Positions 5,237-57,415 of a stretch of DNA of 64,000 bases are shown piece after piece. Numbering within the stretch: the stretch's first letter is position 1; every line of letters begins with the position of its first letter. This DNA comes from Candidatus Kaiserbacteria bacterium RIFCSPHIGHO2_02_FULL_55_25. GTDB taxonomy: Bacteria > Patescibacteriota > Minisyncoccia > Phycocordibacterales > UBA2100. The position numbers and the translations under genes are program-made. The notes under the pieces were generated by a model. That model was not told the origin of the DNA, searched no databases, and saw only the letters and a list, made by a program, of their open reading frames with translations. The stretch is from NCBI GenBank assembly GCA_001781335.1, contig MFLL01000001.1, forward strand, positions 25,626-89,625. Direction: 5' to 3'.

Positions 5237-5301
5237 ATAGTTGTCGATATGTATATCCTTACGTCTGGTCAATGGTGCGGTTGTAGGGACACGCCGCAAG
5301 T

Positions 5302-7685: not shown

Positions 7686-7692
7686 TGCAAGC

Positions 7693-7719
7693 ATTATATC
7701 AGTTTCGGAGTGATATAAT
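7693..7719. promoter_or_regulatory. Divergent pair of -10 boxes. TATAAT on the minus strand (7698-7693) serves corA, and TATAAT on the plus strand (7714-7719) sits 9 nt before the ctpA ATG. Both starts look leaderless.
   Basis: Consensus TATAAT hexamers lie 7-9 nt upstream of the start codons with no SD. The same geometry recurs at at least seven other genes in the window. Confidence 0.35.
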
Positions 7720-7728
7720 CCTCTGGAT

Positions 7729-8973
7729 ATGGAAAACGGTCGTGGCATATCGCTTCTCAATGCCATCGGTATCGCGATTGCTGTTGCGGTCCTCGCTTTT
7801 GCAGGCGGGTCCGCATACGGAAGTTACCGTGCCGTCGCGTCGGGAATTGCGGGCGGTGATATACCTGCGAATGTGGATTTTTCGCCCGTCTGGCGGGCAT
7901 GGCATGTTCTCGATGAGAAGTTTGTGCCGGCAGCCGTCTCGACCTCGACTCCTATCGCCACCAGCACGGCACAGGCCGAACAGGACCGTGTCTGGGGCAT
8001 GATAAGCGGCCTCGCGGCGTCGCTGAACGACCCGTACACATTCTTTTTGCCGCCGGTAGAGAACAAGCAATTCGGGGATGATATGAGCGGGCAGTTTGAG
8101 GGCGTGGGTATGGAAATCGCGGTGAAGAGCGAGGTACTCACCGTAGTCACGCCGCTCAAAGGCACGCCTGCCGAAAAGGCCGGTATTAAGAGCGGAGACC
8201 ATATTCTGAAGATTGACGGTGTCGGTACACAGGGTATGGACGTGGATGCTGCTATCAAAAAAATCCGCGGACCCAAGGGTACGCAGGTCACTCTTACCAT
8301 GCTTCGCCAAGGTTGGGCGGAAACGCGGGAGGTAAAAGTGACGCGCGACGTCATCAATGTCCCCATAATCACAACAACCGCTCGCAAAGACGGCATCTAT
8401 GTCATCGCGCTCTCAAGTTTTACCGCAAATTCGCCCAATCTTTTTCGAGACGCCTTGCGGGATTTTGTAGAATCCGGGAATACCAAGCTCGTGCTCGACT
8501 TGCGCGGTAATCCGGGAGGATACTTGGACGCGGCTGTGGACATGGCGAGCTGGTTTTTGCCTAGCGGCAGTGTCGTCACGACGGAAGATTATGCCGGGCA
8601 CGAGAGCAATATCGTTCATCGCTCGAGCGGCTACGATATATTCAACGAGAATCTGAAAATGGTCGTCCTTGTCAATCAGGGGTCCGCCTCGGCTTCTGAA
8701 ATCCTTGCCGACGCCTTGCGCCATTACAAGGTCGCGAAAATCGTGGGTACCAATACCTTCGGCAAAGGCGTCGTGCAGGAACTCGTGTCCATCACTCCGG
8801 AAACCTCGCTCAAGGTCACGGTGGCCCGCTGGCTCGGCCCCGACGGCACCCAAATACCACTCACCGGCCTGATTCCCGACGTGATGGCCACGACAAGCGA
8901 CGAGGCCATCAAAGCCGAAAAAGACCCGCAGCTGGACAAGGCGGTCGAGCTACTGTTGTTGAAAGCGCAATAA
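7729..8973 (+). CDS. ctpA: Carboxyl-terminal processing protease of the S41 family, with an N-terminal membrane anchor and a PDZ domain.
   Basis: Diagnostic motifs include FEGVGMEI, a PDZ region, LDLRGNPGGYL and GSASASEILA. Confidence 0.88.
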   Translation: MENGRGISLLNAIGIAIAVAVLAFAGGSAYGSYRAVASGIAGGDIPANVDFSPVWRAWHVLDEKFVPAAVSTSTPIATSTAQAEQDRVWGMISGLAASLNDPYTFFLPPVENKQFGDDMSGQFEGVGMEIAVKSEVLTVVTPLKGTPAEKAGIKSGDHILKIDGVGTQGMDVDAAIKKIRGPKGTQVTLTMLRQGWAETREVKVTRDVINVPIITTTARKDGIYVIALSSFTANSPNLFRDALRDFVESGNTKLVLDLRGNPGGYLDAAVDMASWFLPSGSVVTTEDYAGHESNIVHRSSGYDIFNENLKMVVLVNQGSASASEILADALRHYKVAKIVGTNTFGKGVVQELVSITPETSLKVTVARWLGPDGTQIPLTGLIPDVMATTSDEAIKAEKDPQLDKAVELLLLKAQ

Positions 8974-9542: not shown

Positions 9543-10289
9543 TATAGAGGCGACGCCTCGATATACGTGAATTTTACAGCGGAAGGTCGGCATAATATTC
9601 GGCGGCCCCGATAAGTGTGTCCCGTAGCGCAGGGCGTTTTTCGAACATGGACATGGCATCAGCGTCGAGGATCGAGTTCTCCGGCCTCTTTGCCCCTTCG
9701 TAATCCGGCAGGCTACTGTATCGATATGTTTTGAGCTTTTGTTCCAATGATCCTATGTTCCTTACATATCCCGATTTCCATTCTCGCTCGAATAGTTCAG
9801 CAGGATTGAGATGAATGTATTGCACGACATACTGCAGGTACGCATCGTCATCGATGCGTTTGGAACGAAATGGTTTGATAAATACGTTTCCAACATGCTG
9901 TCGCTTCACATTGAAGTACATACTGAAGCTCGTTCCAAGTTTTTGCATGAATGTACTGATTCCTCCGTCGGTAATCTCTTGCAGTAGCAGATGAAAGTGG
10001 TTGGGCATGAGGCAGTACGCACCAATGGAGACCAATGGATTGCCACGCGGCAGGGAAAGAAGGCGTTCGTGCGACGGGCTGTACATAGCTCCACGGCGAA
10101 TTGTACGATTGCCATTGCAAATGTAGAGCGCCTGCAAAAAACGTTCGTAATCCTGCTCGGTCTCGAACACCACATTTTTGTCGATACTGCGGGTATAGCA
10201 GTGGTACCACTCATTGAAAGCGAATTCTTCTCTGCGATATGCCATTTGGGTATAGTATCACCCAATATATAGAGGCGTCGCCTTGATAT
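9543..10289. mobile_element. IS200/IS605-like or RAYT-like element 1, bounded by inverted GC-stem hairpins at 9543-9564 and 10268-10289.
   Basis: The hairpins tatagaggcgacgcctcgatat and tatagaggcgtcgccttgatat are mutual reverse complements and each is near-palindromic. They enclose a single HUH Y1 gene. Confidence 0.7.
9574..10245 (-). CDS. tnpA: HUH-superfamily Y1 transposase-like protein (IS200/IS605 TnpA or RAYT-like), paralog 1.
   Basis: It carries the YCLMPNHFHLLL (HuH) motif and a downstream catalytic-Tyr region YVVQYIHLNP. It is paralogous to the ORFs at 36615-37319 and 56689-57381. Confidence 0.8.
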   Translation of the reverse strand: MAYRREEFAFNEWYHCYTRSIDKNVVFETEQDYERFLQALYICNGNRTIRRGAMYSPSHERLLSLPRGNPLVSIGAYCLMPNHFHLLLQEITDGGISTFMQKLGTSFSMYFNVKRQHVGNVFIKPFRSKRIDDDAYLQYVVQYIHLNPAELFEREWKSGYVRNIGSLEQKLKTYRYSSLPDYEGAKRPENSILDADAMSMFEKRPALRDTLIGAAEYYADLPL

Positions 10290-36573: not shown

Positions 36574-37370
36574 GTTGTGCAAGTTAAACCTGCACAACCA
36601 TGCAATATATGTGTTCATTCGTCAATCGCTAAGATGTGCCAATCGCTTGGTGCTCTCCTACCGAGTAAGACGTCACGCGAAAACTCTTTAAACTCCCTCC
36701 CTTTCAGCAAAACCTCATCCGCGTTTTTCTGATCGAGAAGCGCTGAAAATAATCCAGACGACGTACCGATCAATCCCGCGAACTCATAGTGTCTCGCCCA
36801 CTCAAAAGCATCTTCAAATTCTTCAGTGGCTCGCGAAAGTCCGCCCGGATATTTTTCGAGAGGATTTTTAACATGAATATAGGCATTGAGATACTGCAGC
36901 TGTCTGTCGGAATCAACGGTACGGGCCTGAAATGATCCTTGAAACAAGGTACCGGCCTCAGCATACTGTGCATTGAAATAGGCGGACATACTTGTGCAAA
37001 GTCTCTGCATGAATCGACTAATTCCACCTTCTTCAATCTCCTGAAAAAGAAAGTGGAAATGATTGTCCAGCAGGCAGTACCCCAATATCGAGACATACGG
37101 CTTTGGGTGCGGCCAATGTTCTGGCCGTGCGAAACCCCGACGTACGTGTTCCGGTCCTATATCACGTTCCCAATTACGCGGAACATTCGCATCATTCAAA
37201 TAGCGTACCAGTTTCAGAAATCTCCAGCGATCATTGTCGCTCCTGACGATGTCCATCCGACGGGTGCCTCTGTTATATACATGGACGTATGAACCTACCG
37301 AGTATGGTTCTTTCCGCATTGACACAATGTCGCATACGTCATTACGTTGTGCAAGTTTAACTTTCACAAC
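36574..37370. mobile_element. IS200/IS605-like or RAYT-like element 2, inserted between grpE and dnaK and bounded by hairpins in direct orientation.
   Basis: The hairpins gttgtgcaagttaaacctgcacaac (36574-36598) and gttgtgcaagtttaactttcacaac (37346-37370) flank an HUH gene. The element ends 6 nt from the grpE stop. Confidence 0.7.
36615..37319 (-). CDS. tnpA: HUH Y1 transposase-like protein, paralog 2.
   Basis: It has YCLLDNHFHFLF and YLNAYIHVKNP. The ORF extends to a GTG at 37367 through the hairpin. By alignment to the two paralogs, the ATG at 37319 is the more likely start. Confidence 0.78.
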   Translation of the reverse strand: MRKEPYSVGSYVHVYNRGTRRMDIVRSDNDRWRFLKLVRYLNDANVPRNWERDIGPEHVRRGFARPEHWPHPKPYVSILGYCLLDNHFHFLFQEIEEGGISRFMQRLCTSMSAYFNAQYAEAGTLFQGSFQARTVDSDRQLQYLNAYIHVKNPLEKYPGGLSRATEEFEDAFEWARHYEFAGLIGTSSGLFSALLDQKNADEVLLKGREFKEFSRDVLLGRRAPSDWHILAIDE

Positions 37371-42503: not shown

Positions 42504-43913
42504 TTATTTGGCTTCGGGGGCCACTACGTCAATCTTGATGGCGGCAGGGTCGGTCGGGAACGTGCTTTTCCAGAATGGTTCGATGCGTGCGTGCGCCTCT
42601 TGCACGCCGGAGAACTGGGTGACTATAGTCTGAAACGCGCCTTGGTCCTTGCCTGCAAGAGCCTGCTGTAGAGCCGCGGAATCGATATTCCACACGAGCT
42701 GCGCCGAGCCGGCAAGCGCGAACTGCAATGGGTCGACACCGAAAGTCGACGAAGCGTTCGCTGCGCGTGCGACGAAGCCGCTTCCCGGAGTGAATGTTAT
42801 AGAAGCACCGTTCGCATCGGCATACACCGTTTGTGCAAGCGCATCAGCCGGAAAAACCGGGGCGACAACATGGGCACTTTGATGTATGCGTACGCCGCCG
42901 CCGGCCTCGGGAGTGGAAGGTTCGTCCTTGTATGTAATCTGCACGAGGTCGGGGAACACTACCGTGCCGGCGGCGGCGGCAACAGAGCCACGCGCCTTGC
43001 TTTCAAGTCGGGTGCGTACCGCGCTCACGGCGGTCTGCATTGCAGCAGGCGCGACACCCGGCTTATCTCCGACGAATCCCCCGCTCATGGCGGACGTTGA
43101 CTTCCCGTAGATATGCGGATAAATGGCGGCCGACGTCTTGAGGCCGGGCACGGTGAATTTGCCTGCGGCCACATTATATTGCTCGCCTGGTTGATCGGCG
43201 ATAACCGTCACGCTCACCTGACCCGGCGTCGTGCCCTTCTTTCCCGGAATGACGATATCCGCAGGTGTACGGAATATCAGCCCGCTCTCCGATTGGAAGC
43301 GCGTGTTCTTGATGAGTTTGAACGAGGTCGTCTGATAGTCGTTGTATACCGTGATGATGCCACTCGCCTTGTCTTCGGAATGGACCGTGCCCTGACTCTC
43401 GACGACTTCAGAGTCAGCGAGGTCTACGGTCTGCACAGTGTACGAGAGTGTGCCGCTGGCGGCCGTCGCCGCCGGATACGCCGTAAACCGCGAAGACTCA
43501 TCAAAAGTCGCCGTGTGAGAGCGCGGCGTGACCGTAATCGTGGTCGAGCGCATCGCGACAAGCAACAAAATACCGAGCACGATGACGCATACACCGGCCA
43601 GAGCCCAAATCCACCAACCCGCCAATGCGCTTTTGCGGGGCGGCACTCCGGAAGTCTCTTGATACTCGCGCATGTCGTTCATTGCAGGACGTGAGCGGGG
43701 GCGTTGCGGCATTGAAATGTTGCGGATGGAGCGCTCACCCTCGGCCGGAGGAGGCGGTATTGGGCGGACCGGATTTGCATTAATCGGGACAGGGCGGGAG
43801 TCATCGGACTCGGGCATTTCCGCCGGAGCAGGAGAGGCAGAGGGAGCGCTCTTGCGCGGCTCATTTCCATCCGGAGGCAAGATATCCTGAAAATAATCTT
43901 TGGCCATGTTCAA
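42504..43913 (-). CDS. Hypothetical membrane-anchored protein with a Pro-rich N-terminal tail (469 aa).
   Basis: A Pro/Ser-rich cytoplasmic N-terminus, one TM helix (WWIWALAGVCVIVLGILLLV), and a large extracytoplasmic domain. No family recognised. Confidence 0.5.
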   Translation of the reverse strand: MNMAKDYFQDILPPDGNEPRKSAPSASPAPAEMPESDDSRPVPINANPVRPIPPPPAEGERSIRNISMPQRPRSRPAMNDMREYQETSGVPPRKSALAGWWIWALAGVCVIVLGILLLVAMRSTTITVTPRSHTATFDESSRFTAYPAATAASGTLSYTVQTVDLADSEVVESQGTVHSEDKASGIITVYNDYQTTSFKLIKNTRFQSESGLIFRTPADIVIPGKKGTTPGQVSVTVIADQPGEQYNVAAGKFTVPGLKTSAAIYPHIYGKSTSAMSGGFVGDKPGVAPAAMQTAVSAVRTRLESKARGSVAAAAGTVVFPDLVQITYKDEPSTPEAGGGVRIHQSAHVVAPVFPADALAQTVYADANGASITFTPGSGFVARAANASSTFGVDPLQFALAGSAQLVWNIDSAALQQALAGKDQGAFQTIVTQFSGVQEAHARIEPFWKSTFPTDPAAIKIDVVAPEAK

Positions 43914-49003: not shown

Positions 49004-50167
49004 CTACGATTGGACCGGCTTACAGTACGCCGCCTGCACCCGCTGATACAAGAGCCGAGGCGTATAGCCGACGGGTCTGAGCCCTTGGATTGGAGCTACG
49101 CTACATTGCAACTGCTCCAGTCTGTCGGGTGTCCGCCACGCCATGAACGCGTCAAGTGCTTTCCGCCACCAATCACCGACATTTTCGAAGAAGGTGGCAA
49201 CGTCAGCAACCACAGCAACGATCGCCACGATGAACACCACCGTAGTGAAGTAGGCGACGACATAGTTCAGGAAGTTGAAGTCGTAGTCATTCTTCGCCAG
49301 GACGATTGTTGCAATGCCGAGCAGAATGACGTGAGGAAGCGGAGCAAGTAGTACAGCTCCGTTTTCGCCCACGGCGCGCTCCGTGCCGTCAGTCCTTCGC
49401 CCAATCCACGAGGTTTTGTTCTTCTTATGGTGCCACACTTCCACGAAGCTTTGAGTGAATGGGTGGACGATTGCCCCCCAGTCACACCGTAGCCCGCACA
49501 ACACGCCGTAAAACATCGCGGTGCCGAACCGGAACAGTGTCATCAGCACGAGCCATATTGCAACCGCCGTTGGTTGCAATAGAGGGAAGTACGCTATGAA
49601 CCGGCGCCGACGGATGGAGCAGGAGTTCTTCGCGTACGTCGGGAACAGCAAGTTGATCCACCATTCTTCGCGGGACGAGAGCACAGGAGCGAAAAAGTCT
49701 GCGGATACATTGATGGTCCGCTCGGCGAGGCCGAAACGCCTCAGTCCCATTGCGTGGCGACGTTTGTCGGTATGCCCGCCAACGAGGTCGTTCAGCGAGT
49801 AACGATATTGCCCGTATTGTCCGTCGAGCAACCACGATCGAATTTTCTTCGCTCGATGTTGTTTGCTCCAGACGACGCTGGCGCAGATCGTGTGCGTACC
49901 GCTCGCGTGGAACTGAATGAGCTCACGCTGGCTCGTAAGGTCGAAGACGTATCGCACTTCGTGCCCTTCAGGATTTTTAATCGACACCAACACGAGCGCA
50001 TTCTTGATGTCGTTGTCGCGCACAAAATCCAAGAAAGGCTTCGCCACGCACCACTGAAGGTACATGGTAGCGCTTGACGTCGTTTGCGTGTAGTCGTAAA
50101 GGAGCTGGAGCCCGATATTGGGCAATTTCATCTCTCTTCTCACGCGCTTCGATAGAGTCGCTGACAT
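49004..50167 (-). CDS. Hypothetical protein with a cytoplasmic N-domain and C-terminal TM helices (387 aa).
   Basis: Clean ORF. No family recognised. Confidence 0.5.
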   Translation of the reverse strand: MSATLSKRVRREMKLPNIGLQLLYDYTQTTSSATMYLQWCVAKPFLDFVRDNDIKNALVLVSIKNPEGHEVRYVFDLTSQRELIQFHASGTHTICASVVWSKQHRAKKIRSWLLDGQYGQYRYSLNDLVGGHTDKRRHAMGLRRFGLAERTINVSADFFAPVLSSREEWWINLLFPTYAKNSCSIRRRRFIAYFPLLQPTAVAIWLVLMTLFRFGTAMFYGVLCGLRCDWGAIVHPFTQSFVEVWHHKKNKTSWIGRRTDGTERAVGENGAVLLAPLPHVILLGIATIVLAKNDYDFNFLNYVVAYFTTVVFIVAIVAVVADVATFFENVGDWWRKALDAFMAWRTPDRLEQLQCSVAPIQGLRPVGYTPRLLYQRVQAAYCKPVQS

Positions 50168-50481: not shown

Positions 50482-50868
50482 CTAGAGCATCGCTTTGGCG
50501 GCTTTCTTTCTTAATGCATCGAAAGGTGCCTTGTCGAGAAAGCCAATGCGGTTCTGTAACCGACGTGTATCAACGACTCGCAATTGCGAAAGATTTGCTC
50601 GAGCCTCCTGGTCTTCAATTAATCCAACAGGTACGCGTAGCGCGTGTTTACGCAGAGACGTCGTGAGCGGCACTATCAAGCATGCATCGGGGCCGAATCC
50701 TCGCATGATTACACACGGGCGAACGTGCCACTCGCCTTTCCCATCTTGTTCTGTGCCAATGTTTACACCAAGTCGACACCACCAGACTTCGCGCACGGTA
50801 TACAAACGCGGTTGTTCGGCATTTGTTTTCTTCTTTACCTCGTTCCACCCATCAAAATCTTTTTCCAT
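50482..50868 (-). CDS. MazF/PemK-family toxin-like protein (mRNA interferase fold). No antitoxin gene is adjacent.
   Basis: PemK/MazF pattern ...RPCVIM...ACLIVPLTT...VPV...LSQLRVVDTRRL..RIG.L. A minus-strand TACAAT sits 7 nt upstream of the ATG. Confidence 0.65.
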   Translation of the reverse strand: MEKDFDGWNEVKKKTNAEQPRLYTVREVWWCRLGVNIGTEQDGKGEWHVRPCVIMRGFGPDACLIVPLTTSLRKHALRVPVGLIEDQEARANLSQLRVVDTRRLQNRIGFLDKAPFDALRKKAAKAML

Positions 50869-50886: not shown

Positions 50887-51567
50887 CTACAACCAATCAA
50901 TCGGTTTTTTGGAGTGGGCCGATAGATAGTCGTTGGTTTTGCTGAATGGCTTTGAGCCGAAGAAGCCGTTGTATGCTGAAAACGGCGACGGATGCGGCGA
51001 TTCAATGACGAAATGCTTTGCGCGGTCGATGTGCGCGCCTTTTGCTTTGGCGTAGTTGCCCCACAGGATAAAAACGAGATTCTCGCGCTCTTCGGAGAGT
51101 TTGCGAATGACCGCATCGGTGAATTGCTCCCACCCCTGCCCCTGATGCGAACCCGCTTTGCGCGCGCTCACCGTCAGAGTCGCATTGAGAAGAAGAACTC
51201 CTTGCTTGGACCAATGTTCGAGATTACCCTTCTTCGCCAAGGCTTCGAAGGGCAAAGAACAATCTGCTGAAAGTTCTTTGAATATATTCTGAAGCGACGG
51301 CGGCAAGCGCTGGCCTTCGCTCACCGCGAAACACAGACCGTTGGCCTGATTGGGACCGTGGTACGGGTCTTGGCCAAGTATTACCACTTGGATTTTGTCG
51401 AACGGGCATAGGTCGAACGCGCGGAAAATATTCTTGGGCGGCGGGTACACAATCCCATGCAAGTATTCGCTTTTTACAAATTCCCGCAGCATCTTGAAGT
51501 AATCCTTGCCGAATTCATCCTTCAGCACCGCTTTCCACGACGCCTCTATCTGTACCTCCTTTTCCAT
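50887..51567 (-). CDS. ung: Uracil-DNA glycosylase (family 1).
   Basis: It has GQDPYHGPNQANGLCFAV and HPSPFSAYNGFFG. Confidence 0.93.
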   Translation of the reverse strand: MEKEVQIEASWKAVLKDEFGKDYFKMLREFVKSEYLHGIVYPPPKNIFRAFDLCPFDKIQVVILGQDPYHGPNQANGLCFAVSEGQRLPPSLQNIFKELSADCSLPFEALAKKGNLEHWSKQGVLLLNATLTVSARKAGSHQGQGWEQFTDAVIRKLSEERENLVFILWGNYAKAKGAHIDRAKHFVIESPHPSPFSAYNGFFGSKPFSKTNDYLSAHSKKPIDWL

Positions 51568-51576
51568 ACCCCCACT

Positions 51577-52431
51577 TTAGCCCGCGGTGAACGCAAGCGC
51601 GATAGCGGTGAGGACGGCAAGCGAGAGGCCGAATTTTTGATGCACCACAAGTCGTTCTTTATTAAAAAAGAGACCGAGTATCGCGGCGAGCGCAATGTAG
51701 CTCTCGGTGAGACCCGTCGCGAGACCGATGGGCATAAAAAGAGTCGCTGACGAATAGGCTACCCACGCAGTATTGTCGCTCACACTCACCGCAAGAATGA
51801 GTCCTTTATTTTTTCTCCAATTCGATAAGACCAAATGTCCCTGCCTCGTGTACAGGAGGTATGCGAGCGTCGAAACGGCCATAAAGGCGCTCGTAAACCA
51901 GTTTATCATCAGGGGGTCTGTCGCGCGCGACGCAAAGCCGAAGAGAAAGTTGCTGGCACCCATGCCGATGGTTGCGAGCACTGCAACGAGTACCCCCTTT
52001 TCCAGTGTCCGTATCCGCATACGACCGAAATGCTTATTAGAAACGAGAAAGATGCCGACGAGAAGCCCGACGATGAGCATCAGCTGTGTGCCCGTCATGA
52101 CTTCGCCGATGATAAACGTAGAGAGTGCGATGGTGATAGGAACTTCCATTGCATAGATGGGCTCCACGACCGAAATTTTGCCGACGCGCAGCGCATCAAA
52201 GTCGAGCAGACCGGCGGCAAGAATGACAACGCTCGTTCCAGTAAGTACCAGCCAGTCAAATGCGCTTAACCCCTCGAGTGCCTGATATACGAACGGGAAC
52301 AGTACGATGGCCGCAAAGGCGGTGATAAAGAAAAGAGCTTCCCAGTCGCCGAGCTTGCGGGCACTGCGCTGAATGAGAAAATCGCCGAATCCCCAACCCA
52401 CGATGGCGAGCCCCGCGAAGAGAATTCCCAT
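51577..52431 (-). CDS. EamA/DMT-superfamily transporter (10 TM).
   Basis: Two EamA-like repeats. Confidence 0.78.
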   Translation of the reverse strand: MGILFAGLAIVGWGFGDFLIQRSARKLGDWEALFFITAFAAIVLFPFVYQALEGLSAFDWLVLTGTSVVILAAGLLDFDALRVGKISVVEPIYAMEVPITIALSTFIIGEVMTGTQLMLIVGLLVGIFLVSNKHFGRMRIRTLEKGVLVAVLATIGMGASNFLFGFASRATDPLMINWFTSAFMAVSTLAYLLYTRQGHLVLSNWRKNKGLILAVSVSDNTAWVAYSSATLFMPIGLATGLTESYIALAAILGLFFNKERLVVHQKFGLSLAVLTAIALAFTAG

Positions 52432-52437
52432 GAGTGA

Positions 52438-52695
52438 TTACGCGAGCGCGCCCTCGCGCCGCAAAATCTCTTGTTTGCGCAGGGTGCCACCGCGGTTGTA
52501 ATCACCGAATCCCCCATCCGTGCGCACCACGCGGTGACACGGAATAGTATCGTCGTAATTCGTGCGCATAATCGCTCCCACGGCACGCGCCGCGAGCGGA
52601 TTCCCCGCATTGGTTGCAACCTCTTTGTACGTCATCGTCTTCCCTTCCGGAATCTTGCGGACAATATCGCGCACATTATCTGCAAACGTCTTCAT
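52438..52695 (-). CDS. MGMT-family DNA-binding domain protein (standalone O6-alkylguanine-DNA alkyltransferase C-domain or Atl-like, 85 aa).
   Basis: The active-site motif IPCHRVV and a downstream GG..KL.LL..EG-like tail. Confidence 0.78.
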   Translation of the reverse strand: MKTFADNVRDIVRKIPEGKTMTYKEVATNAGNPLAARAVGAIMRTNYDDTIPCHRVVRTDGGFGDYNRGGTLRKQEILRREGALA

Positions 52696-52796
52696 TCACG
52701 TATTATACCTCGTTATGTTTCGTGCCTCAGAGGTATCTGCATGAATTCGATGCGTACATTATAAGCGGCCGGTCGGCCGCTTATAATGTACCGGCT

Positions 52797-53621
52797 CTAC
52801 AAGCCGAGAGACTTGGTTTCTTTGCCTTTCTTCGCGAGCGCCAGCAGTTTCTTGCCGGCGAATTCACGATATCTGCAATAGTCACAATCCTCCGACGGCG
52901 CGGGAATCTCGTCGCTATCGAGACACTTCTTGATATCCATCAGCGTTCCCTCCACCCACGAATCGTCACCTTTGTGTGCGATAAGCGTCACCTCAAACTC
53001 AAGTCGTCCGTCAAATGATTTATTGTCTTTGCTCGCGTTGGCGTAGACGAAGTAGCCGGTATCCGAGACCTTGAAGCCGTTTTGGCGGAAGAGCCACTGA
53101 TACACCTCCATCTGATGCTTGTAGCCGTCGTGCCATTCCTGGTCCAGCGCTTCGATTTTTTCGTCTTTGCTCGTCGATTTGTAGTCCACAATCATCAATT
53201 CCCCCTTGGGGTTCACCCACACGTCATCTATCGCACCGGAGACAGTGAATCCCGTCGGCTCGTGTTTGAAATCAATGCCTTTGAAATTCTCGCGCCAGAT
53301 ATGCATCTTGGCGTGCTGAAATGGTACTGCGTCTACCCCATACTGCTCCATCAGCGGATGTGATGTTTTCCCCGCGCGATGAATATCAAATTCTTTTTTG
53401 AGGAGCGCATCGACGGCGGAGTTGAGGTTGAACGGATATCCTGGCGGACGTGCGGTGCCGAGCTTGTTGTCTACATAAAAACAGCGCGGGCAGTCCTGAA
53501 ACAGACCGATTTTTGACCTCGAAAGACGCCACTTATTGCCGCCGTAATTCCAGTCCGGCTTTCTGTCGGGTTTGTAGTACTGAGACATGGGGGAAGTATA
53601 CCCCATTAGATAGCTACGCAT
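52797..53621 (-). CDS. Cas4-like / RecB-family PD-(D/E)xK nuclease with four Fe-S-type cysteines.
   Basis: An N-terminal CPRC, a nuclease core GAIDDVWVNPKGELMIVDYKS (D..D/ExK), and a C-terminal CLDSD...CDYCRY. The Cys1 and Cys3 spacing is typical of Cas4/AddB Fe-S nucleases. No CRISPR repeats or other cas genes are nearby. Confidence 0.65.
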   Translation of the reverse strand: MRSYLMGYTSPMSQYYKPDRKPDWNYGGNKWRLSRSKIGLFQDCPRCFYVDNKLGTARPPGYPFNLNSAVDALLKKEFDIHRAGKTSHPLMEQYGVDAVPFQHAKMHIWRENFKGIDFKHEPTGFTVSGAIDDVWVNPKGELMIVDYKSTSKDEKIEALDQEWHDGYKHQMEVYQWLFRQNGFKVSDTGYFVYANASKDNKSFDGRLEFEVTLIAHKGDDSWVEGTLMDIKKCLDSDEIPAPSEDCDYCRYREFAGKKLLALAKKGKETKSLGL

Positions 53622-53634
53622 CTAACGGGACAGG

Positions 53635-54150
53635 TCACTGCGCCGTTGGAGTTACCGGAGGCGGAGTGCCGTTGGTATCGGGGTGATGCTCGACGAACCA
53701 GTGTTTAAACTTGTTCTCCACATACCACATGCCGGTGAACATAATGAGGGACAGGAGCGCCGCAAAGATGGATACCGAGTACATGCCGAAGCCCACTGCC
53801 ATACCGATGGCCGCGGTAATCCAAAGGCCGGCCGCCGTCGTTATGCCGTGCAATGATTCGCCGCGGAAAATGATGAGACCGCCGCCGAGGAATCCGATAC
53901 CCGTGATGATGGCCGCGGCGATAAAAGTCGGCTGAACGTCCGCAAGCCCCAAGAACGCGATATTTACATAGTTGCCTATGACCACGAAAAGACACGCGCC
54001 CAGCGCGACGAGACCGAAGGTGCGCGTGCCGGCGGGTTGGCGCGCAAGTATCGCGCGTTCGGTACCGATGACGCCGCCGAGGACTATTGCAAGCACGAGT
54101 TTGAAAAACATGATGCTCGTCGGGTCGATAAATTGCGCTGTAGTCTGCAT
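53635..54150 (-). CDS. MgtC/SapB-family membrane protein.
   Basis: MgtC signature (VLGGVIGTERAILARQPAGTRTFGLVALGAC). Confidence 0.82.
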   Translation of the reverse strand: MQTTAQFIDPTSIMFFKLVLAIVLGGVIGTERAILARQPAGTRTFGLVALGACLFVVIGNYVNIAFLGLADVQPTFIAAAIITGIGFLGGGLIIFRGESLHGITTAAGLWITAAIGMAVGFGMYSVSIFAALLSLIMFTGMWYVENKFKHWFVEHHPDTNGTPPPVTPTAQ

Positions 54151-54165
54151 ACGGGGATTATACGC

Positions 54166-54990
54166 TCAAATTGAGCACAATCGTTGAGCTTCTTCGAGTA
54201 CCTGTGGAATCTTGCCCGGCGCGACGCCATACTCGCGCAGTGTGTGCGGGTCCCGCACGCTTTTACACAACACGACCTTGTTCTCCAAAAGCCGCCGTTT
54301 CTCTCCTTCGGAAAGTGTGGTCAAGGCCGTGAGCGGATGCACTTTGCCCTCCTCTATCATCTGCATCAGCCCGCGCGTGCGCGGATAATCCCAGCCGATG
54401 ACGGTGAGATTGGAACAGCGGGCGTAGCGGATGGCGTTGCGCGTCAGTACCGTATTGGTAACGAGCCAGCCCTCGTCCACCCGCGAAGAAGCAAGCGGCG
54501 CCTGTCGAAGGTCGTCGTAACGGGCTTTCACATAGAGCGCGTCTTTGATGTCGGTCTTTCCGCCCGGCTCGTTGTGGAATTTGGCCTCGATGCCAACGCG
54601 CCTGCCGTCTTTCTCGGCTAGTACATCCACCTCGTGTGGAGCGCAACGGCCCATGAGCATCAAGTCGGTACGGACGCGCCAGCCGTGCGCACGCAACACC
54701 TCGGCAAGGAATTGTTCAAACGGAAATCCGGACGGCCCGAGCGCAAAAACCGCGCGCTTGACCGAATACCGCGCCGCGATAGGCGTGGCCTCGTTTTTCT
54801 TAAGCAACGCAAACGCTCGGCGGTAAATATCCTCGGTCGTCATGAGCGGCCGAAGTTCCTTGATGACCTCCGAGAGAATGTGTGCGCGCATGGTCGATGA
54901 GGCGCCGGCATGCGAAAGCGAGCGCTCGAGCTTCACCGGGTCAAACGGCTCCTGTTCTCCATCAGCTTTTGTTATGAAAATGTGCGGCAT
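54166..54990 (-). CDS. ATP-cone domain fused to an Mrr-like PD-(D/E)xK restriction endonuclease domain.
   Basis: An N-terminal ATP-cone (ITKADGEQEPFDPVKLERSL) and a central HEVDVLAEKDGRRVGIEAKF motif (D...ExK). Confidence 0.68.
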   Translation of the reverse strand: MPHIFITKADGEQEPFDPVKLERSLSHAGASSTMRAHILSEVIKELRPLMTTEDIYRRAFALLKKNEATPIAARYSVKRAVFALGPSGFPFEQFLAEVLRAHGWRVRTDLMLMGRCAPHEVDVLAEKDGRRVGIEAKFHNEPGGKTDIKDALYVKARYDDLRQAPLASSRVDEGWLVTNTVLTRNAIRYARCSNLTVIGWDYPRTRGLMQMIEEGKVHPLTALTTLSEGEKRRLLENKVVLCKSVRDPHTLREYGVAPGKIPQVLEEAQRLCSI

Positions 54991-55459: not shown

Positions 55460-56590
55460 TCACTTCTCCGCAAAAGGCATCACTTTTTGTTTTTTGTCCT
55501 CTTTCGGCTTCGCCGCTGCGGGCACGGGAGCTGTGTTTTTTGCCAGTATGCCACCACCGAGACAGCGACCGCCGTCATACACAACGGCTGATTGCCCCGG
55601 AGAGATTACGTGCGGCTCGCCGAAGTCGACATACGCGCGCTTGCCTTCGCTGCGTAGCTTGATGGGAAGCGGCGTCTCCCGGTAGCGCATTTGTGCGGCA
55701 AGGCCGGTAAGGAACGACGGAGCGACTCCCGATATCCAATGCATGTCCAGCACAACGGTGCCCGCGCGCGCCGCGTCGGAACGGTTTGCCGACACTATCA
55801 CGATGTTGTTCTTGGTGTCGATACCGGTGACATAGTGCGGCGTCTTCGCCAACTGCTTCTTGGTGACGGTGAATCCGTGCCGCTGCCCGATAGTGTAGAG
55901 CGCGGCACCTTCGTGGACGCCGAGGATATGGCCCTTTTTGTCGGTCACGCGCCCCTCGGCAACAGTGATAAAGCGCTTCAGAAAATCGCGCATACTGACG
56001 TCGCCGACAAAACACAGGCCCTGACTGTCGGGCTTCTGCGCGACGGGAAGGGAGTGCGCTTTTGCATATGCGCGTACCTGTTTTTTTGTCATTGCGCCGA
56101 CGGGGAACGCGGAGCGCGAGAGGTCGCCCTGATTGAGTTGGTACAAAAAGTACGACTGGTCTTTGTCTTTGTCGACACCGCGCCACAGCTCGGGACCATG
56201 CTCGCCCTGTTTTATCTGCGCATAATGACCGGTCGCAACCACATCGGCACCCTCGGCGCGCGCCCATTTAGAGAACGCGCCGAACTTGATACTGCGATTG
56301 CACAGCACGTCGGGATTCGGTGTCTCGCCCGCGCTGTACGACGAAATCATTTTTGTGACGACCTCATTTTTGTACTCTTCGGACAAATCAATCTCTTTGA
56401 ACGGTATGCCGAGCGCTGCGGCAACGCGCATCGCATCGAGCCGGTCGCGCTGCCACGTGCACTCGATAAATTCCGGCTGCCAAATCTTTATGAAAACGCC
56501 CACAACCTTGTGCCCCTGTTCTTTGAGGAGCGCGGCACTCACCGCGCTATCCACTCCTCCCGAAAGCCCGACAAAAACCGTATGCGCCAT
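55460..56590 (-). CDS. mnmA: tRNA-specific 2-thiouridylase MnmA.
   Basis: PP-loop SGGVDSAV, catalytic cysteines, and the remaining MnmA signatures. Confidence 0.93.
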   Translation of the reverse strand: MAHTVFVGLSGGVDSAVSAALLKEQGHKVVGVFIKIWQPEFIECTWQRDRLDAMRVAAALGIPFKEIDLSEEYKNEVVTKMISSYSAGETPNPDVLCNRSIKFGAFSKWARAEGADVVATGHYAQIKQGEHGPELWRGVDKDKDQSYFLYQLNQGDLSRSAFPVGAMTKKQVRAYAKAHSLPVAQKPDSQGLCFVGDVSMRDFLKRFITVAEGRVTDKKGHILGVHEGAALYTIGQRHGFTVTKKQLAKTPHYVTGIDTKNNIVIVSANRSDAARAGTVVLDMHWISGVAPSFLTGLAAQMRYRETPLPIKLRSEGKRAYVDFGEPHVISPGQSAVVYDGGRCLGGGILAKNTAPVPAAAKPKEDKKQKVMPFAEK

Positions 56591-56644: not shown

Positions 56645-57415
56645 TGGCAAGGTAAGACCTTGCCATTTTTGTGTTATGCTTTTTGCCTATGGGCGATCGC
56701 ATCGTTTATTTCCAACCCGGAGAATGGTTCCACTGCTACAGTCGCGGTGTCGATAAAAGACGTGTATTTATATCAGCAAGCGATTATCAGCGTTTTCAGG
56801 CGCTGCTGTATGCATGTAACAATACTGATATGATTCACGTCAGTAATTACGGTCAAGGCTTTCGAAGTAAAAATCTTACTAATGTACTGAGTATTCCTCG
56901 GAGCGAATCGCTTGTTGACATCGGGGCATATAATCTGATGCCAAACCATTATCACCTTTTGTTGCGGGAACAGGTTGATGGTGGGGTGACTTCGTTCATG
57001 CGCAAAATCGGAACTGCGTACACCATGTACTTTAATATCAAGAACAAGCGCTCGGGTGCACTGTTCGAGGGTGCATTCAAAGCGAAACACGTTAAAACGG
57101 ATGCGTACTTCCGCAGAGTGTTCAATTACATTCAAGGCAATCATGCAGAACTTTCGGAGCCGCGATGGAAAGAAGGTGTCATCCAAAACGACCGGGCACT
57201 TATAGAGTCACTTCTCGCCTATCCATACTCGAGCCTTAAAGACTTCAACGGACCATCGAGACCAGAGCGCGCAATAGTTAACCGCAACTCGATACTCGAC
57301 ATCATTGACGAAATTCCGAACCCTAGAAAAATCCTTGAGGACGCTCGCATATTCGCTCGACTACACGAGGACGGCCTGTAACGCATCTACCTTATGGCAA
57401 GGTCTTACCTTGCCA
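56645..57415. mobile_element. RAYT/IS200-like element 3, flanked by inverted REP-like hairpins tggcaagg-taaga-ccttgcca (56645-56665) and tggcaagg-tctta-ccttgcca (57395-57415).
   Basis: The stems are identical and the loops are reverse complements, so the two hairpins are in inverted orientation. A third related hairpin tcatgagcaagg-aagac-ccttgctcatga lies at 57549-57577. Confidence 0.72.
56689..57381 (+). CDS. tnpA: HUH Y1 transposase-like protein, paralog 3.
   Basis: It has YNLMPNHYHLLL and VFNYIQGNHAEL. By alignment to the paralogs the start is the MGDRIVYFQ Met. Confidence 0.8.
   Translation: MGDRIVYFQPGEWFHCYSRGVDKRRVFISASDYQRFQALLYACNNTDMIHVSNYGQGFRSKNLTNVLSIPRSESLVDIGAYNLMPNHYHLLLREQVDGGVTSFMRKIGTAYTMYFNIKNKRSGALFEGAFKAKHVKTDAYFRRVFNYIQGNHAELSEPRWKEGVIQNDRALIESLLAYPYSSLKDFNGPSRPERAIVNRNSILDIIDEIPNPRKILEDARIFARLHEDGL

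What the first reader, a model, noticed from the sequence alone, without database searches (positions are those of the whole stretch)
52438..54990. Cluster of DNA-repair or defense-like nucleases: MGMT-like protein, Cas4-like Fe-S nuclease and ATP-cone-Mrr endonuclease
Within 2.5 kb on one strand lie three genes. One is an 85-aa PCHR-motif alkyltransferase-like protein. One is a 274-aa PD-(D/E)xK nuclease with a Cas4/AddB-type four-Cys arrangement (CPRC...CDYCRY) and no CRISPR context. One is a 274-aa ATP-cone protein fused to an Mrr-like endonuclease core. MgtC and a small membrane protein sit between them, and ung is next door. This may be a lineage-specific DNA-damage or anti-foreign-DNA module.
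Basis: partly seen in the sequence, partly recalled or inferred. Interest (0 to 1): 0.5.

Follow-up and report, generated by a model that had tools for sequence, protein, structure and literature searches.

The report
Unrelated DNA enzymes in conserved synteny
The three genes are real and look catalytically intact, but they sit side by side because a long stretch of core gene order is conserved in Kaiserbacteria, not because they form a dedicated repair or defence module; only the Cas4-like nuclease shows any link to anti-foreign-DNA biology, and that link is seen in other lineages.

Summary
The window is a Candidatus Kaiserbacteria (CPR) chromosome. All three genes exist at the stated coordinates with intact motifs. 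They are a C-domain-only O6-alkylguanine alkyltransferase with its catalytic Cys, a RecB/Cas4-family nuclease with an invariant CxxC…CxxC pair, and an ATP-cone + AF1548/Mrr-type nuclease + HhH protein. In 80 related species the order MltG-MnmA-ConeMrr-MgtC-PDDEXK-MGMT is kept. But DnaB, sigma-70 and AlaRS are kept in the same loci about as often, and unrelated genes (PurC, DUF7282) are inserted inside the block. Outside this lineage the families were never adjacent, in 5 ConeMrr and 10 PDDEXK contexts. ConeMrr, MgtC, MGMT and MnmA diverge congruently (r 0.65-0.84). PDDEXK does not (r 0.28-0.39) and shows in-situ allele replacement. PADLOC hits only Cas4 models, for PDDEXK. Verdict: ordinary core-genome synteny of independent genome-maintenance genes, not a module. 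Two by-products deserve follow-up. In other Paceibacteria the same PDDEXK family is the one constant gene inside variable defence islands. The ATP-cone nuclease is an uncharacterised, widespread family as conserved here as DnaB.

The parts
52438..52695 (-). Single-domain (C-terminal domain only) O6-alkylguanine-DNA alkyltransferase, 85 aa. The catalytic Cys53 codon is at 52537-52539.
   Evidence: PF01035 E=1.8e-26 and TIGR00589 70.9 bits. Residue-by-residue match to Ada-C and hAGT active-site residues. P-C-H-R-V invariant in 53 homologues.
52754..52791 (.). Perfect 18-bp inverted repeat (2-nt loop) just after the PDDEXK stop. A TATAAT follows about 10 nt before the MGMT ATG. This may be a local transcription boundary and is specific to this genome.
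   Evidence: arms 100% complementary. (dG -42 kcal/mol, z -6.6). (sequence). Unique in the window. Absent from most relatives, where the PDDEXK stop overlaps the MGMT start.
52797..53588 (-). Solo RecB/Cas4-family PD-(D/E)xK nuclease, 263 aa (the ORF extends to 53621). It has a C44xxC47 … C246xxC249 metal-cluster motif (274-aa numbering).
   Evidence: PF12705 61.3 bits. Cas4 models in PADLOC at 7.6e-11. TIGR00372 at 36.5, below the cutoff of 65. Invariant catalytic and Cys residues. AF2 model pLDDT 78, pTM 0.78. Fold hits to RecE, Cas4, Exo5, AdnAB and MGME1.
53635..54150 (-). MgtC/SapB-family membrane protein, 171 aa. It is a conserved neighbour but functionally unrelated.
   Evidence: PF02308 E=1.3e-30. 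Present downstream of ConeMrr in 59 of 64 loci.
54166..54990 (-). ATP-cone + AF1548/Mrr-type PD-(D/E)xK nuclease + C-terminal helical (HhH-like) domain, 274 aa ('ConeMrr').
54754..54978 (-). ATP-cone domain of ConeMrr (residues 5-79). K8, G11, F16 and K20 are conserved in at least 91% of 149 family representatives.
   Evidence: PF03477 29.6 bits against a cutoff of 25.8. Fold hits to NrdR, NrdB and RNR cones. Conservation.
54400..54729 (-). Nuclease core of ConeMrr (residues 88-197). D122, E135 and K137 are 100% conserved and E120 is conserved in 148 of 149. D122-x12-E135-x-K137 aligns with the AF1548 triad that was predicted to be catalytic.
   Evidence: Catalytic prediction for AF1548 in PMC1821046.
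54993..55400 (-). Small predicted membrane protein (135 aa as called; the ORF runs to 55463). It has no family and is a semi-conserved neighbour.
   Evidence: No Pfam or NCBIfam hit. Present in 20 of 39 loci.
55460..56590 (-). MnmA tRNA 2-thiouridylase. It is the most persistent neighbour of ConeMrr.
   Evidence: PF03054 E=4e-75. Present in 38 of 39 loci. Still adjacent where MgtC, PDDEXK and MGMT are missing.
51577..52431 (-). EamA-family transporter. It is an accessory insertion.
   Evidence: Found in 0 of 39 full-flank loci and in 1 of the 80 loci overall, L057.
50887..51567 (-). Family-1 uracil-DNA glycosylase (Ung). It is a variable-distance neighbour.
   Evidence: NF003592 318 bits. Present in 11 of 39 loci at +2.4 to +6 kb.
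50482..50868 (-). PemK/MazF-like toxin. It is an accessory gene.
   Evidence: PF02452 E=5.6e-11. Rarely conserved.

Best explanation
The three genes are independent genome-maintenance enzymes. They lie together because Kaiserbacteria keep a long, tightly packed, co-directional block of core genes: …RecR-DnaB-sigma70-472aa-MltG-MnmA-(small membrane protein)-ConeMrr-MgtC-PDDEXK-MGMT-…-AlaRS. They do not form one system.

Predicted individual roles:
1. The 85-aa protein is a minimal suicide alkyltransferase. It flips O6-alkylguanine into its pocket (Arg37 finger, Tyr23, Asn46) and transfers the alkyl group to Cys53. The sequence match is shown; activity without an N-terminal domain is inferred.
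2. PDDEXK is a solo Cas4/RecB-type metal-dependent nuclease, probably acting on DNA ends or 5' flaps. Its nuclease fold is stapled by a four-Cys metal site (Fe-S or Zn). Fold and motifs are shown; substrate and metal are inferred.
3. ConeMrr is a member of the uncharacterised AF1548 nuclease family. Its N-terminal ATP-cone most likely gates DNA cleavage or binding according to ATP/dATP, by analogy with NrdR and RNR cones and with CARF-nuclease effectors such as Can2. The architecture is shown; the mechanism is inferred.

ConeMrr and MGMT are vertically inherited core genes. PDDEXK occupies a fixed slot but is exchanged between lineages.
For: Identity of the organism and locus: the same proteins occur on GCA_001781605.1, and the closest named homologues are Kaiserbacteria.

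Non-specific synteny: in the 39 loci with at least 9 kb on both sides, counts are MnmA 38, MgtC 38, PDDEXK 36, MltG 34, sigma-70 34, the 472-aa protein 34, AlaRS 33, MGMT 31, DnaB 29 and RecR 29.

Insertions of unrelated genes inside the block.

Decay outside the lineage:
- ConeMrr homologues at 35-46% identity sit in a Bacteroidota heavy-metal ICE, next to a fatty-acid hydroxylase, next to trigger factor and the ATP synthase operon, and next to HIT and signal peptidase. None has PDDEXK, MGMT or MgtC nearby.
- PDDEXK homologues in other Paceibacteria have none of the partners.

Congruence of pairwise distances: ConeMrr-MnmA 0.84, ConeMrr-MGMT 0.80 and ConeMrr-MgtC 0.78, but PDDEXK against any neighbour only 0.28-0.39. 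As an example, between L032 and L035/L060 the flanking genes are 66-81% identical while PDDEXK is 47-48%.

Core-gene behaviour: at least 586 GTDB species representatives encode ConeMrr. Its median identity of 70% equals that of DnaB (75), sigma-70 (74) and AlaRS (71), and exceeds MnmA (57).

No defence-model hit except Cas4 for PDDEXK. No ConeMrr on viral contigs.

Catalytic residues are intact in all three.
Against: - The genes are packed with 2-15 bp gaps, apart from a 101-bp spacer.
- In at least 10 relatives the PDDEXK stop overlaps the MGMT start (ATGA). Co-transcription and translational coupling are therefore likely, and coupling can reflect shared function.
- RecR, DnaB, RmuC, Ung, MGMT and two nucleases within 20 kb is a DNA-metabolism-rich neighbourhood.
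- Only 5 distinct distant ConeMrr contexts and 10 PDDEXK contexts were sampled, and 5 of the latter came from a biased (IMG/VR) source.
- No expression or biochemical data exist for any of the three proteins.
Confidence: 0.7

Rival explanations
1. This is a genuine co-expressed DNA-damage repair operon. MGMT (with Ung) recognises base damage, and the two PD-(D/E)xK nucleases process the resulting intermediates. For example, ATL-type lesion recognition could hand off to a nuclease, with ATP-cone gating by nucleotide pools.
For: Gene order persists down to about 46-50% ConeMrr identity. The PDDEXK stop and MGMT start overlap (ATGA) in many relatives. Ung follows in about 20 loci. All active sites are intact. 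From my own knowledge, ATL proteins are known to channel lesions to nucleases of NER.
Against: Unrelated housekeeping genes show the same persistence. PurC, DUF7282 and others are inserted inside the block. No co-localisation is seen outside the lineage. PDDEXK alleles are swapped independently of MGMT and ConeMrr. In this genome a strong hairpin plus a -10 box separates PDDEXK from MGMT. MGMT keeps its Cys, so it can complete repair alone.
Confidence: 0.12
2. This is an anti-foreign-DNA (defence) locus. An Mrr-type restriction endonuclease gated by ATP-cone and a Cas4-like nuclease degrade invading DNA, and PemK acts as an abortive-infection toxin nearby.
For: ConeMrr has Mrr_cat homology. 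Its fold resembles MspJI, Can2 and Card1-type defence nucleases. In all 10 contexts examined, PDDEXK relatives in other Paceibacteria are embedded in RM, Gabija-like, Thoeris, RT, TIR and AbiE islands. PDDEXK shows HGT-like allele replacement. A PemK toxin lies 1.6 kb away.
Against: ConeMrr is near-universal in this lineage, vertically inherited and as conserved as DnaB. That is unlike defence genes. It has no PADLOC or PHROG hit and is absent from viral contigs. It lacks the modified-DNA reader domain of Mrr-type enzymes. In the window itself no RM, CRISPR or other defence system flanks the genes. MGMT and Ung are repair enzymes. PemK is not a conserved neighbour.
Confidence: 0.08
3. ConeMrr is not a nuclease in vivo. 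Instead it is a nucleotide-sensing DNA-binding regulator (functionally NrdR-like) or a nucleic-acid processing enzyme linked to its constant neighbour MnmA. Its adjacency to the other two genes is irrelevant.
For: ATP-cone proteins outside RNR are regulators, as in NrdR (fold hits; the literature located). The ConeMrr-MnmA adjacency is the most persistent, at 38 of 39 loci, and survives loss of MgtC, PDDEXK and MGMT. The C-terminal helical DNA-binding-type domain is shared with AF1548.
Against: D122, E135 and K137 are 100% conserved and E120 is conserved in 148 of 149 divergent representatives. That argues for catalysis. The MnmA adjacency is not seen in the distant contexts. No operator-like repeats were sought or found.
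Confidence: 0.1

Closest known systems
O6-alkylguanine-DNA alkyltransferases (Ada-C, Ogt, human AGT/MGMT; PF01035, TIGR00589)
   Same: It has the helix-turn-helix DNA-binding domain with the Arg finger, Asn hinge, PCHR active-site Cys and Glu-His-Cys network. All of these align residue by residue.
   Different: It is only 85 aa and lacks the whole N-terminal domain. From my own knowledge, isolated C-domains of human AGT are inactive, but C. elegans AGT-2 works without the canonical N-domain. Activity here is therefore plausible but untested.
Alkyltransferase-like proteins (ATL; Atl1, E. coli YbaZ)
   Same: It is single-domain and of similar size (it matches 3GVA Atl1 at E=4e-8).
   Different: From my own knowledge, ATLs lack the acceptor Cys, having Trp or Ala instead. 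Here Cys53 is present and invariant.
Solo-Cas4 / PF12705 RecB-family nucleases of small-genome prokaryotes (Hudaiberdiev et al. 2017, PMC5704561; M. mazei Solo-Cas4, PMC12501428)
   Same: It has a PD-(D/E)xK core with RecB motifs and four Cys, and it is encoded outside CRISPR loci. The family is reported as over-represented in CPR, and an association with RM genes is noted for DPANN. It shows fold similarity to Cas4, RecE, Exo5 and AdnAB.
   Different: The Cys pattern is CxxC…CxxC rather than C…CxxCx5C. It falls below the NCBIfam Cas4 cutoff. It has no solved-structure relative by sequence. The published statement is that solo-cas4 evolves mostly vertically, whereas here the gene is incongruent with its neighbours.
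AF1548 (PDB 1Y88), Archaeoglobus fulgidus, a structural-genomics protein predicted to be a restriction-type endonuclease (PMC1821046)
   Same: The nuclease core and C-terminal helical domain match at E=9e-28, and the D-x12-E-x-K triad is aligned.
   Different: The part of AF1548 that aligns begins only about 21 residues from its N-terminus, which leaves no room for an ATP-cone. The window protein adds one. At least the 150 best-scoring representatives of 50%-identity clusters keep this full three-part architecture.
NrdR and RNR ATP-cones; CARF-nuclease effectors (Can2/Card1)
   Same: The logic is a small nucleotide-sensing domain fused to an effector. The cone is fold-similar to NrdR, NrdB and RNR, and the nuclease core is fold-similar to Can2, Cdn1 and NucS.
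   Different: No Zn-ribbon (NrdR), no CARF domain and no CRISPR context. The cone has K-[A/S]-[D/S]-G rather than the canonical K-R-D-G. Ligand binding was not tested.
Mrr type IV restriction endonuclease
   Same: It has the Mrr_cat catalytic domain (34.2 bits).
   Different: From my own knowledge, Mrr enzymes carry an N-terminal winged-helix reader of modified DNA, and this protein has none. It is core, vertically inherited and highly conserved, and no defence model hits it.

Membership tests
O6-alkylguanine-DNA alkyltransferase (MGMT/Ogt/Ada-C) | PCHR active site with acceptor Cys | tested here: met
   P52-C53-H54-R55 aligns to hAGT P144-C145-H146-R147. It is invariant in 53 homologues.
O6-alkylguanine-DNA alkyltransferase (MGMT/Ogt/Ada-C) | Arg finger, Tyr114, Asn137, Tyr158 and Glu172 equivalents | tested here: met
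   R37, Y23, N46, Y66 and E81 align to these residues.
O6-alkylguanine-DNA alkyltransferase (MGMT/Ogt/Ada-C) | Two-domain architecture with an N-terminal domain | tested here: not met
   The protein is 85 aa and the match covers only profile or chain positions of the C-domain. Equivalog cutoffs for Ogt and Ada are not reached.
O6-alkylguanine-DNA alkyltransferase (MGMT/Ogt/Ada-C) | Stoichiometric alkyl transfer to Cys | not testable with these tools
   This needs a biochemical assay.
Alkyltransferase-like (ATL) proteins | Acceptor Cys replaced (Trp or Ala), so no transfer | tested here: not met
   Cys53 is present and invariant.
Cas4 (TIGR00372 / PF01930) | Score above curated family cutoffs | tested here: inconclusive
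   PF01930 scores 23.2 against 22.7, which is marginal. TIGR00372 scores 36.5 against 65 and fails. PADLOC Cas4 models reach E=7.6e-11.
Cas4 (TIGR00372 / PF01930) | One N-terminal plus three C-terminal Cys (C…CxxCx5C) Fe-S module | tested here: not met
   The observed pattern is C44xxC47 … C246xxC249, with no third C-terminal Cys, and it is invariant. The canonical pattern is from my own knowledge. Metal content is not testable here.
Cas4 (TIGR00372 / PF01930) | Association with cas1/cas2 and a CRISPR array | tested here: not met
   No spaced direct repeats lie in the 64-kb window. No cas genes appear in the Pfam annotation of about 62 kb of the window.
PD-(D/E)XK nuclease superfamily, RecB-like (PF12705) | Motifs E…D…(D/E)xK…QxxxY and the fold | tested here: met
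   It scores 61.3 bits against a cutoff of 22. E77, D132, D146, K148, Q170 and Y174 are invariant. Foldseek gives prob 1.0 to RecE, Cas4 and Exo5.
AF1548 / Mrr_cat nuclease family (PF04471) | Homology to AF1548 plus the D-x12-E-x-K triad | tested here: met
   It matches 1Y88 at E=9e-28. D122, E135 and K137 are 100% conserved in 149 representatives. It is the top fold hit.
Type IV restriction enzyme Mrr | N-terminal modified-DNA-binding winged helix, with patchy defence-like distribution | tested here: not met
   The N-terminus is an ATP-cone. The gene is core and vertically inherited. There is no PADLOC hit.
ATP-cone domain (PF03477) | Domain match above the cutoff and a conserved K/G/F/K signature | tested here: met
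   It scores 29.6 against 25.8. K8, G11, F16 and K20 are conserved in at least 91% of representatives. There are fold hits to NrdR and RNR cones.
ATP-cone domain (PF03477) | Binds ATP/dATP and allosterically controls the fused domain | not testable with these tools
   The canonical Arg of the K-R-D-G motif is Ala or Ser here. This needs ITC and activity assays.
Known anti-phage defence systems (PADLOC-DB 2.0) | Component models hit and system gene content is present | tested here: not met
   Only Cas4 models hit PDDEXK. Nothing hits ConeMrr, MGMT, MgtC, the small membrane protein, EamA or PemK.
Functional gene module / conserved operon | Adjacency retained in lineages that do not share the surrounding synteny | tested here: not met
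   None of 5 distant ConeMrr contexts and none of 10 distant PDDEXK contexts retain it. Within the lineage, adjacency is no stronger than for AlaRS or sigma-70.

The most novel reading that the evidence does not exclude
The CxxC…CxxC PD-(D/E)xK nuclease may be a Paceibacteria-wide nuclease that is exchanged by recombination and is the single constant gene inside otherwise variable defence islands. Those islands carry MmeI-type RM, PLD-SNF2, Gabija-like, Thoeris, RT, TIR and AbiE genes. It would then be either a generic helper that degrades foreign DNA ends for many systems (RecBCD-like, in organisms that may lack RecBCD/AddAB) or the recombination anchor of a defence hotspot. In Kaiserbacteria the same gene is fixed between MgtC and MGMT but is still swapped. 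Separately, ConeMrr would be a new class of (d)ATP-gated nuclease that is a core gene of CPR bacteria, for example tying DNA degradation or salvage to nucleotide pools.
Probability: 0.2. Interest if true: 0.65.

Novelty: new member of a known kind. Interest (0 to 1): 0.33.

Why it matters
As posed, a three-nuclease repair or defence module, the finding is ordinary. It is a case of conserved gene order in a streamlined CPR genome being mistaken for functional linkage. It also shows that a 'co-conservation' test needs a synteny control.

Two side results have value. First, a single Cas4-like nuclease family is the invariant element of diverse defence islands in Paceibacteria, and it shows in-situ allele replacement in Kaiserbacteria. 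This could give a handle on how organisms that mostly lack CRISPR organise immunity. Second, the ATP-cone + AF1548-type nuclease family has a solved homologue and invariant catalytic residues, and within Kaiserbacteria it is as conserved as DnaB. I found no described function for it. It would be a tractable target for finding a new nucleotide-sensing nuclease.

Tried and rejected
1. Fe-S or metal cluster in ConeMrr. Four Cys (C116, C192, C242, C272) are at least 96% conserved in Kaiserbacteria. Across 149 family representatives only C116 and C192 stay at about 95%; C242 is 74% and C272 is 50%. I rejected this as a family feature.

2. A link between ConeMrr and metal or cation transport. It was suggested by MgtC downstream in Kaiserbacteria and by a P-type ATPase, Cus and multicopper oxidase ICE in Bacteroidota. 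Three further contexts did not reproduce it.

3. The hairpin at 52754-52791 as a REP element of the three Y1 transposase-like genes, or as a conserved terminator. It is unique in the window and absent in most relatives.

The ConeMrr model from 15 close sequences is only moderate: pLDDT 69.6 and pTM 0.47, with the linker 69-89 and residues 201-218 unreliable.

5. PDB sequence searches for PDDEXK found nothing meaningful, even at E=10.

6. Rfam found no RNA family in the window. Promoter and terminator scans were not enriched in a useful way.

7. Literature searches for an ATP-cone-nuclease fusion or for AF1548 function found only the 2007 GOS prediction. No paper was found describing PDDEXK in CPR defence islands.

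Full report
OBSERVATION

The window is a chromosome segment of a Candidatus Kaiserbacteria bacterium (CPR/Paceibacterota). The ATP-cone protein is encoded identically on GCA_001781605.1 (MFLR01000047) and on Rifle-aquifer scaffolds, and its closest named homologues are Kaiserbacteria.

On the minus strand lie, in transcription order:
- MnmA (55460-56590)
- a small membrane protein (54993-55400/55463)
- the ATP-cone/Mrr protein, 'ConeMrr' (54166-54990)
- MgtC (53635-54150)
- the PD-(D/E)xK nuclease, 'PDDEXK' (52797-53588/53621)
- a 101-bp spacer
- the 85-aa MGMT-domain protein (52438-52695)
- EamA (51577-52431)
- Ung (50887-51567)
- PemK (50482-50868)

Domain assignments are all well above chance.

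THE THREE PROTEINS

MGMT. It aligns to the C-terminal domain of Ada and human AGT with every functionally named residue in place: Tyr23/114, Arg37/128, Asn46/137, Pro-Cys-His-Arg 52-55/144-147, Tyr66/158 and Glu81/172. The PCHRV motif is invariant in 53 relatives. Because the acceptor Cys is present, it is not an ATL protein in the strict sense. It is a minimal, one-domain alkyltransferase.

PDDEXK. Its best match is PF12705. It is marginal for Pfam Cas4 and fails the NCBIfam Cas4 cutoff, while PADLOC Cas4 models hit it. The real start is probably Met12. The RecB motifs and four cysteines are invariant, but the cysteines are arranged CxxC…CxxC. To my knowledge the Cas4/AddB/Exo5 pattern is C…CxxCx5C. 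It has no relative of solved structure by sequence. The AlphaFold model (pLDDT 78, pTM 0.78) matches RecE, several Cas4 structures, Exo5, AdnAB, MGME1 and lambda exonuclease.

ConeMrr. It combines three parts:
- An ATP-cone (residues 5-79).
- A nuclease core plus C-terminal helical domain homologous to AF1548/1Y88 (E=9e-28).
- A D122-x12-E135-x-K137 triad that matches the residues predicted to be catalytic in AF1548 (PMC1821046).

HMMER against 1.8 billion cluster representatives finds 415 clusters at E<1e-30, and the 150 best are all full length. In 149 of these representatives D122, E135 and K137 are 100% conserved and E120 is conserved in 148. The cone residues K8, G11, F16 and K20 are conserved in at least 91%. 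The family is not CPR-specific: cultivated Bacteroidota (Myroides, Sphingobacterium) carry it, annotated as 'restriction endonuclease / ATP cone domain-containing protein'. Fold neighbours of the core are NucS, Can2/Card1-type effectors and MspJI. Fold neighbours of the cone are NrdR, NrdB and RNR. The model is only moderate (pLDDT 69.6).

IS IT A MODULE?

A scan of one genome per GTDB species found at least 586 species with a ConeMrr relative, and I kept 80 loci at 80-46% identity. The order MltG-MnmA-(membrane protein)-ConeMrr-MgtC-PDDEXK-MGMT is retained in most of them. With family HMMs, 49 of 64 loci with enough downstream sequence have MgtC, PDDEXK and MGMT together.

The necessary control shows that this is uninformative, for five reasons.
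- In 39 loci with at least 9 kb on both sides, sigma-70 (34), an unknown 472-aa protein (34), MltG (34), AlaRS (33), DnaB (29) and RecR (29) are retained about as often as PDDEXK (36) and MGMT (31). EamA and the 387-aa protein appear in none of the 39, and PemK, NUDIX and the Y1 transposase only rarely.
- Unrelated genes are inserted inside the block. DUF7282 lies between ConeMrr and MgtC in a whole sub-lineage, SAICAR synthetase lies between MgtC and PDDEXK, and a Q_salvage-like gene lies between PDDEXK and MGMT.
- Where the surrounding synteny is gone, so is the association. ConeMrr relatives sit in a Bacteroidota RteC-type heavy-metal ICE, after a fatty-acid hydroxylase, between trigger factor and the ATP synthase operon, between HIT and signal peptidase, and beside Band_7 and LolA-like genes. 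None has PDDEXK, MGMT or MgtC nearby.
- The evolutionary histories differ. Pairwise-distance correlations are 0.84 (ConeMrr-MnmA), 0.80 (ConeMrr-MGMT) and 0.78 (ConeMrr-MgtC), but only 0.28-0.39 for PDDEXK against any neighbour.
- PDDEXK falls into at least three allele classes of about 50% identity at the same position. L032 shares 66-81% identity with L035 and L060 in the flanking genes but 47-48% in PDDEXK. L035 and L060 share 91% in PDDEXK but 72-80% in the flanks.

Further evidence against a defence island in the window:
- No PADLOC model hits ConeMrr or MGMT.
- ConeMrr is absent from IMG/VR.
- The window has no CRISPR-like repeats and no Rfam hits.
- The rest of the window consists largely of ribosomal proteins, aminoacyl-tRNA synthetases, chaperones and cell-wall genes.
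- ConeMrr is as conserved (median 70%) as DnaB, sigma-70 and AlaRS, and more conserved than MnmA (57%).

Counter-evidence. The genes are tightly packed. In at least 10 relatives the PDDEXK stop overlaps the MGMT start (ATGA), so co-transcription is likely. In this particular genome the two are instead separated by a perfect 18-bp hairpin (dG -42 kcal/mol, z -6.6) followed by a TATAAT. Tight packing and overlaps are also seen between clearly unrelated genes here, for example between MnmA and the membrane protein.

WHERE THE EVIDENCE LED: PDDEXK ELSEWHERE

Six IMG/VR contigs carry PDDEXK relatives at 49-61% identity. One contig proved to be cellular, with MltG nearby. Each relative lies directly after different defence-type genes:
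- HsdR + OLD/TOPRIM ATPase + UvrD (Gabija-like)
- Eco57I/MmeI-type methylase
- SNF2 helicase
- PHP-SMC ATPase, with an integrase downstream
- RT + EcoRI methylase + GmrSD-HNH, followed by ThsB-ThsA-ThsB

Because IMG/VR is a biased source, I queried the protein database with one of these relatives. The clade is about 80% identical across genomes labelled Magasanik-, Andersen-, Taylor- and Azambacteria. They carried MmeI/Eco57I RM, UvrD, RT, TIR, PLD-SNF2, AbiEii and large serine recombinases, with 2-12 bp gaps on both sides of PDDEXK.

Among the nine loci compared, PDDEXK is the only segment shared by all. L098, L099 and L109/L110 share a downstream core block ending in MltG. In those lineages PDDEXK is therefore a chromosomal gene around which variable defence genes accumulate. 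The four cysteines are retained.

This agrees with, and extends, the remark of Hudaiberdiev et al. (PMC5704561). They report that solo-Cas4 is over-represented in CPR and DPANN, and that in DPANN it is sometimes next to RM genes. My result contrasts with their general conclusion of mainly vertical inheritance.

Two explanations fit. PDDEXK may be a helper nuclease used by many systems. Alternatively, a very conserved gene may serve as the homologous-recombination anchor of a defence hotspot, which would also explain its mosaic phylogeny. I cannot separate these two here.

MECHANISM (SHOWN VERSUS INFERRED)

Shown: domain architectures, intact catalytic residues, fold classes, gene order and its phylogenetic range, and congruence or incongruence of divergence.

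Inferred:
- MGMT performs one-shot alkyl transfer without an N-domain.
- PDDEXK is a metal-cluster-stapled nuclease acting on DNA ends or 5' flaps.
- ConeMrr cleaves or binds DNA under ATP/dATP control.

COMPARISON AND NOVELTY

Each protein belongs to a known family: PF01035, PF12705/solo-Cas4-like, and PF04471 + PF03477 with the 1Y88 structure. The occurrence of solo Cas4-like nucleases in CPR is published. The cluster is a new instance of known kinds in conserved synteny. The unusual points are:
- the one-domain Cys-containing MGMT
- the 2+2 Cys pattern
- the uncharacterised but highly conserved ATP-cone nuclease
- the defence-island and allele-swapping behaviour of PDDEXK

VERDICT

Interest is 0.33 overall. 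The PDDEXK/defence-island lead and the ConeMrr family are the parts worth pursuing.

Noticed in passing
L098-L103 and L106-L111 (PDDEXK at about 5001-5760, 6001-6756 or 7001-7756 in each): In other Paceibacteria, PDDEXK homologues (49-61% identical to the window's; about 80% identical to each other across several candidate phyla) are the only constant gene inside variable defence islands. The islands carry MmeI/Eco57I RM, PLD-SNF2, Gabija-like OLD+UvrD, Thoeris ThsA/ThsB, RT, TIR, GmrSD and AbiEii, with large serine recombinases or an integrase nearby. All 10 contexts examined showed this, 5 of them chosen without bias.
   Followed up: partly
window 52797-53588; loci L007-L086: PDDEXK divergence is decoupled from its flanking genes (pairwise-distance r 0.28-0.39, against 0.65-0.84 among the neighbours). 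At least three allele classes of about 50% identity occupy the same slot. For example, between L032 and L035/L060 the flanks are 66-81% identical while PDDEXK is 47-48%. This suggests in-situ replacement or recombination.
   Followed up: partly
L087-L092 (ConeMrr homologue at 8001-8855): An identical ATP-cone/Mrr protein (35% identical to the window's) occurs in several Bacteroidota genera. It lies inside an RteC-bearing mobile heavy-metal island: CusABC-type RND, DUF305, a GAPDH-like gene, a DeoC-like gene, ConeMrr, a P-type ATPase and a multicopper oxidase. L086 shows a related GAPDH-like + YHS neighbourhood.
   Followed up: partly
window 52754-52791: A perfect 18-bp inverted repeat (GTACATTATAAGCGGCCG / CGGCCGCTTATAATGTAC; dG -42 kcal/mol, z -6.6) lies between PDDEXK and MGMT, followed by a TATAAT about 10 nt before the MGMT ATG. 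It is unique in the window and absent from most relatives.
   Followed up: yes
loci L010, L012, L013, L014, L018, L026, L030, L031, L040, L048 (PDDEXK/MGMT junction): In many relatives the PDDEXK stop codon overlaps the MGMT start codon (ATGA), which implies translational coupling. The window genome has lost this arrangement.
   Followed up: partly
window 56671-57381 (+), 36615-37319 (-), 9574-10245 (-): The 64 kb holds three Y1_Tnp (IS200/RAYT-like tyrosine transposase) genes, each in an otherwise conserved housekeeping neighbourhood. The copy between MltG and MnmA is not conserved in related species.
   Followed up: no
window 1859-5236 (+): A 1125-aa class-I tRNA synthetase (Pfam tRNA-synt_1, tRNA-synt_1_2 and Anticodon_1, so probably LeuRS) also has Pfam hits on record to Ser_hydrolase/Abhydrolase_6 and NUDIX. 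This suggests an unusual inserted or fused domain.
   Followed up: no
window 42504-43913 (-): A gene product with a Baseplate_J Pfam hit (phage or contractile-injection baseplate) lies next to a ribosomal protein/RpoA cluster.
   Followed up: no
window 50482-50868 (-) and 49004-50167 (-): A PemK/MazF-like toxin gene has no obvious adjacent antitoxin ORF. It is followed by a 387-aa predicted membrane protein with no family. Both are accessory, not conserved in related loci, and sit in the variable zone downstream of MGMT and Ung.
   Followed up: no
L061-L078 (between ConeMrr and MgtC, e.g. L065 10847-11452): A DUF7282-domain protein is inserted between ConeMrr and MgtC throughout the sub-lineage with 50-60% ConeMrr identity. 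In L077 it follows ConeMrr even though MgtC and PDDEXK are absent.
   Followed up: partly
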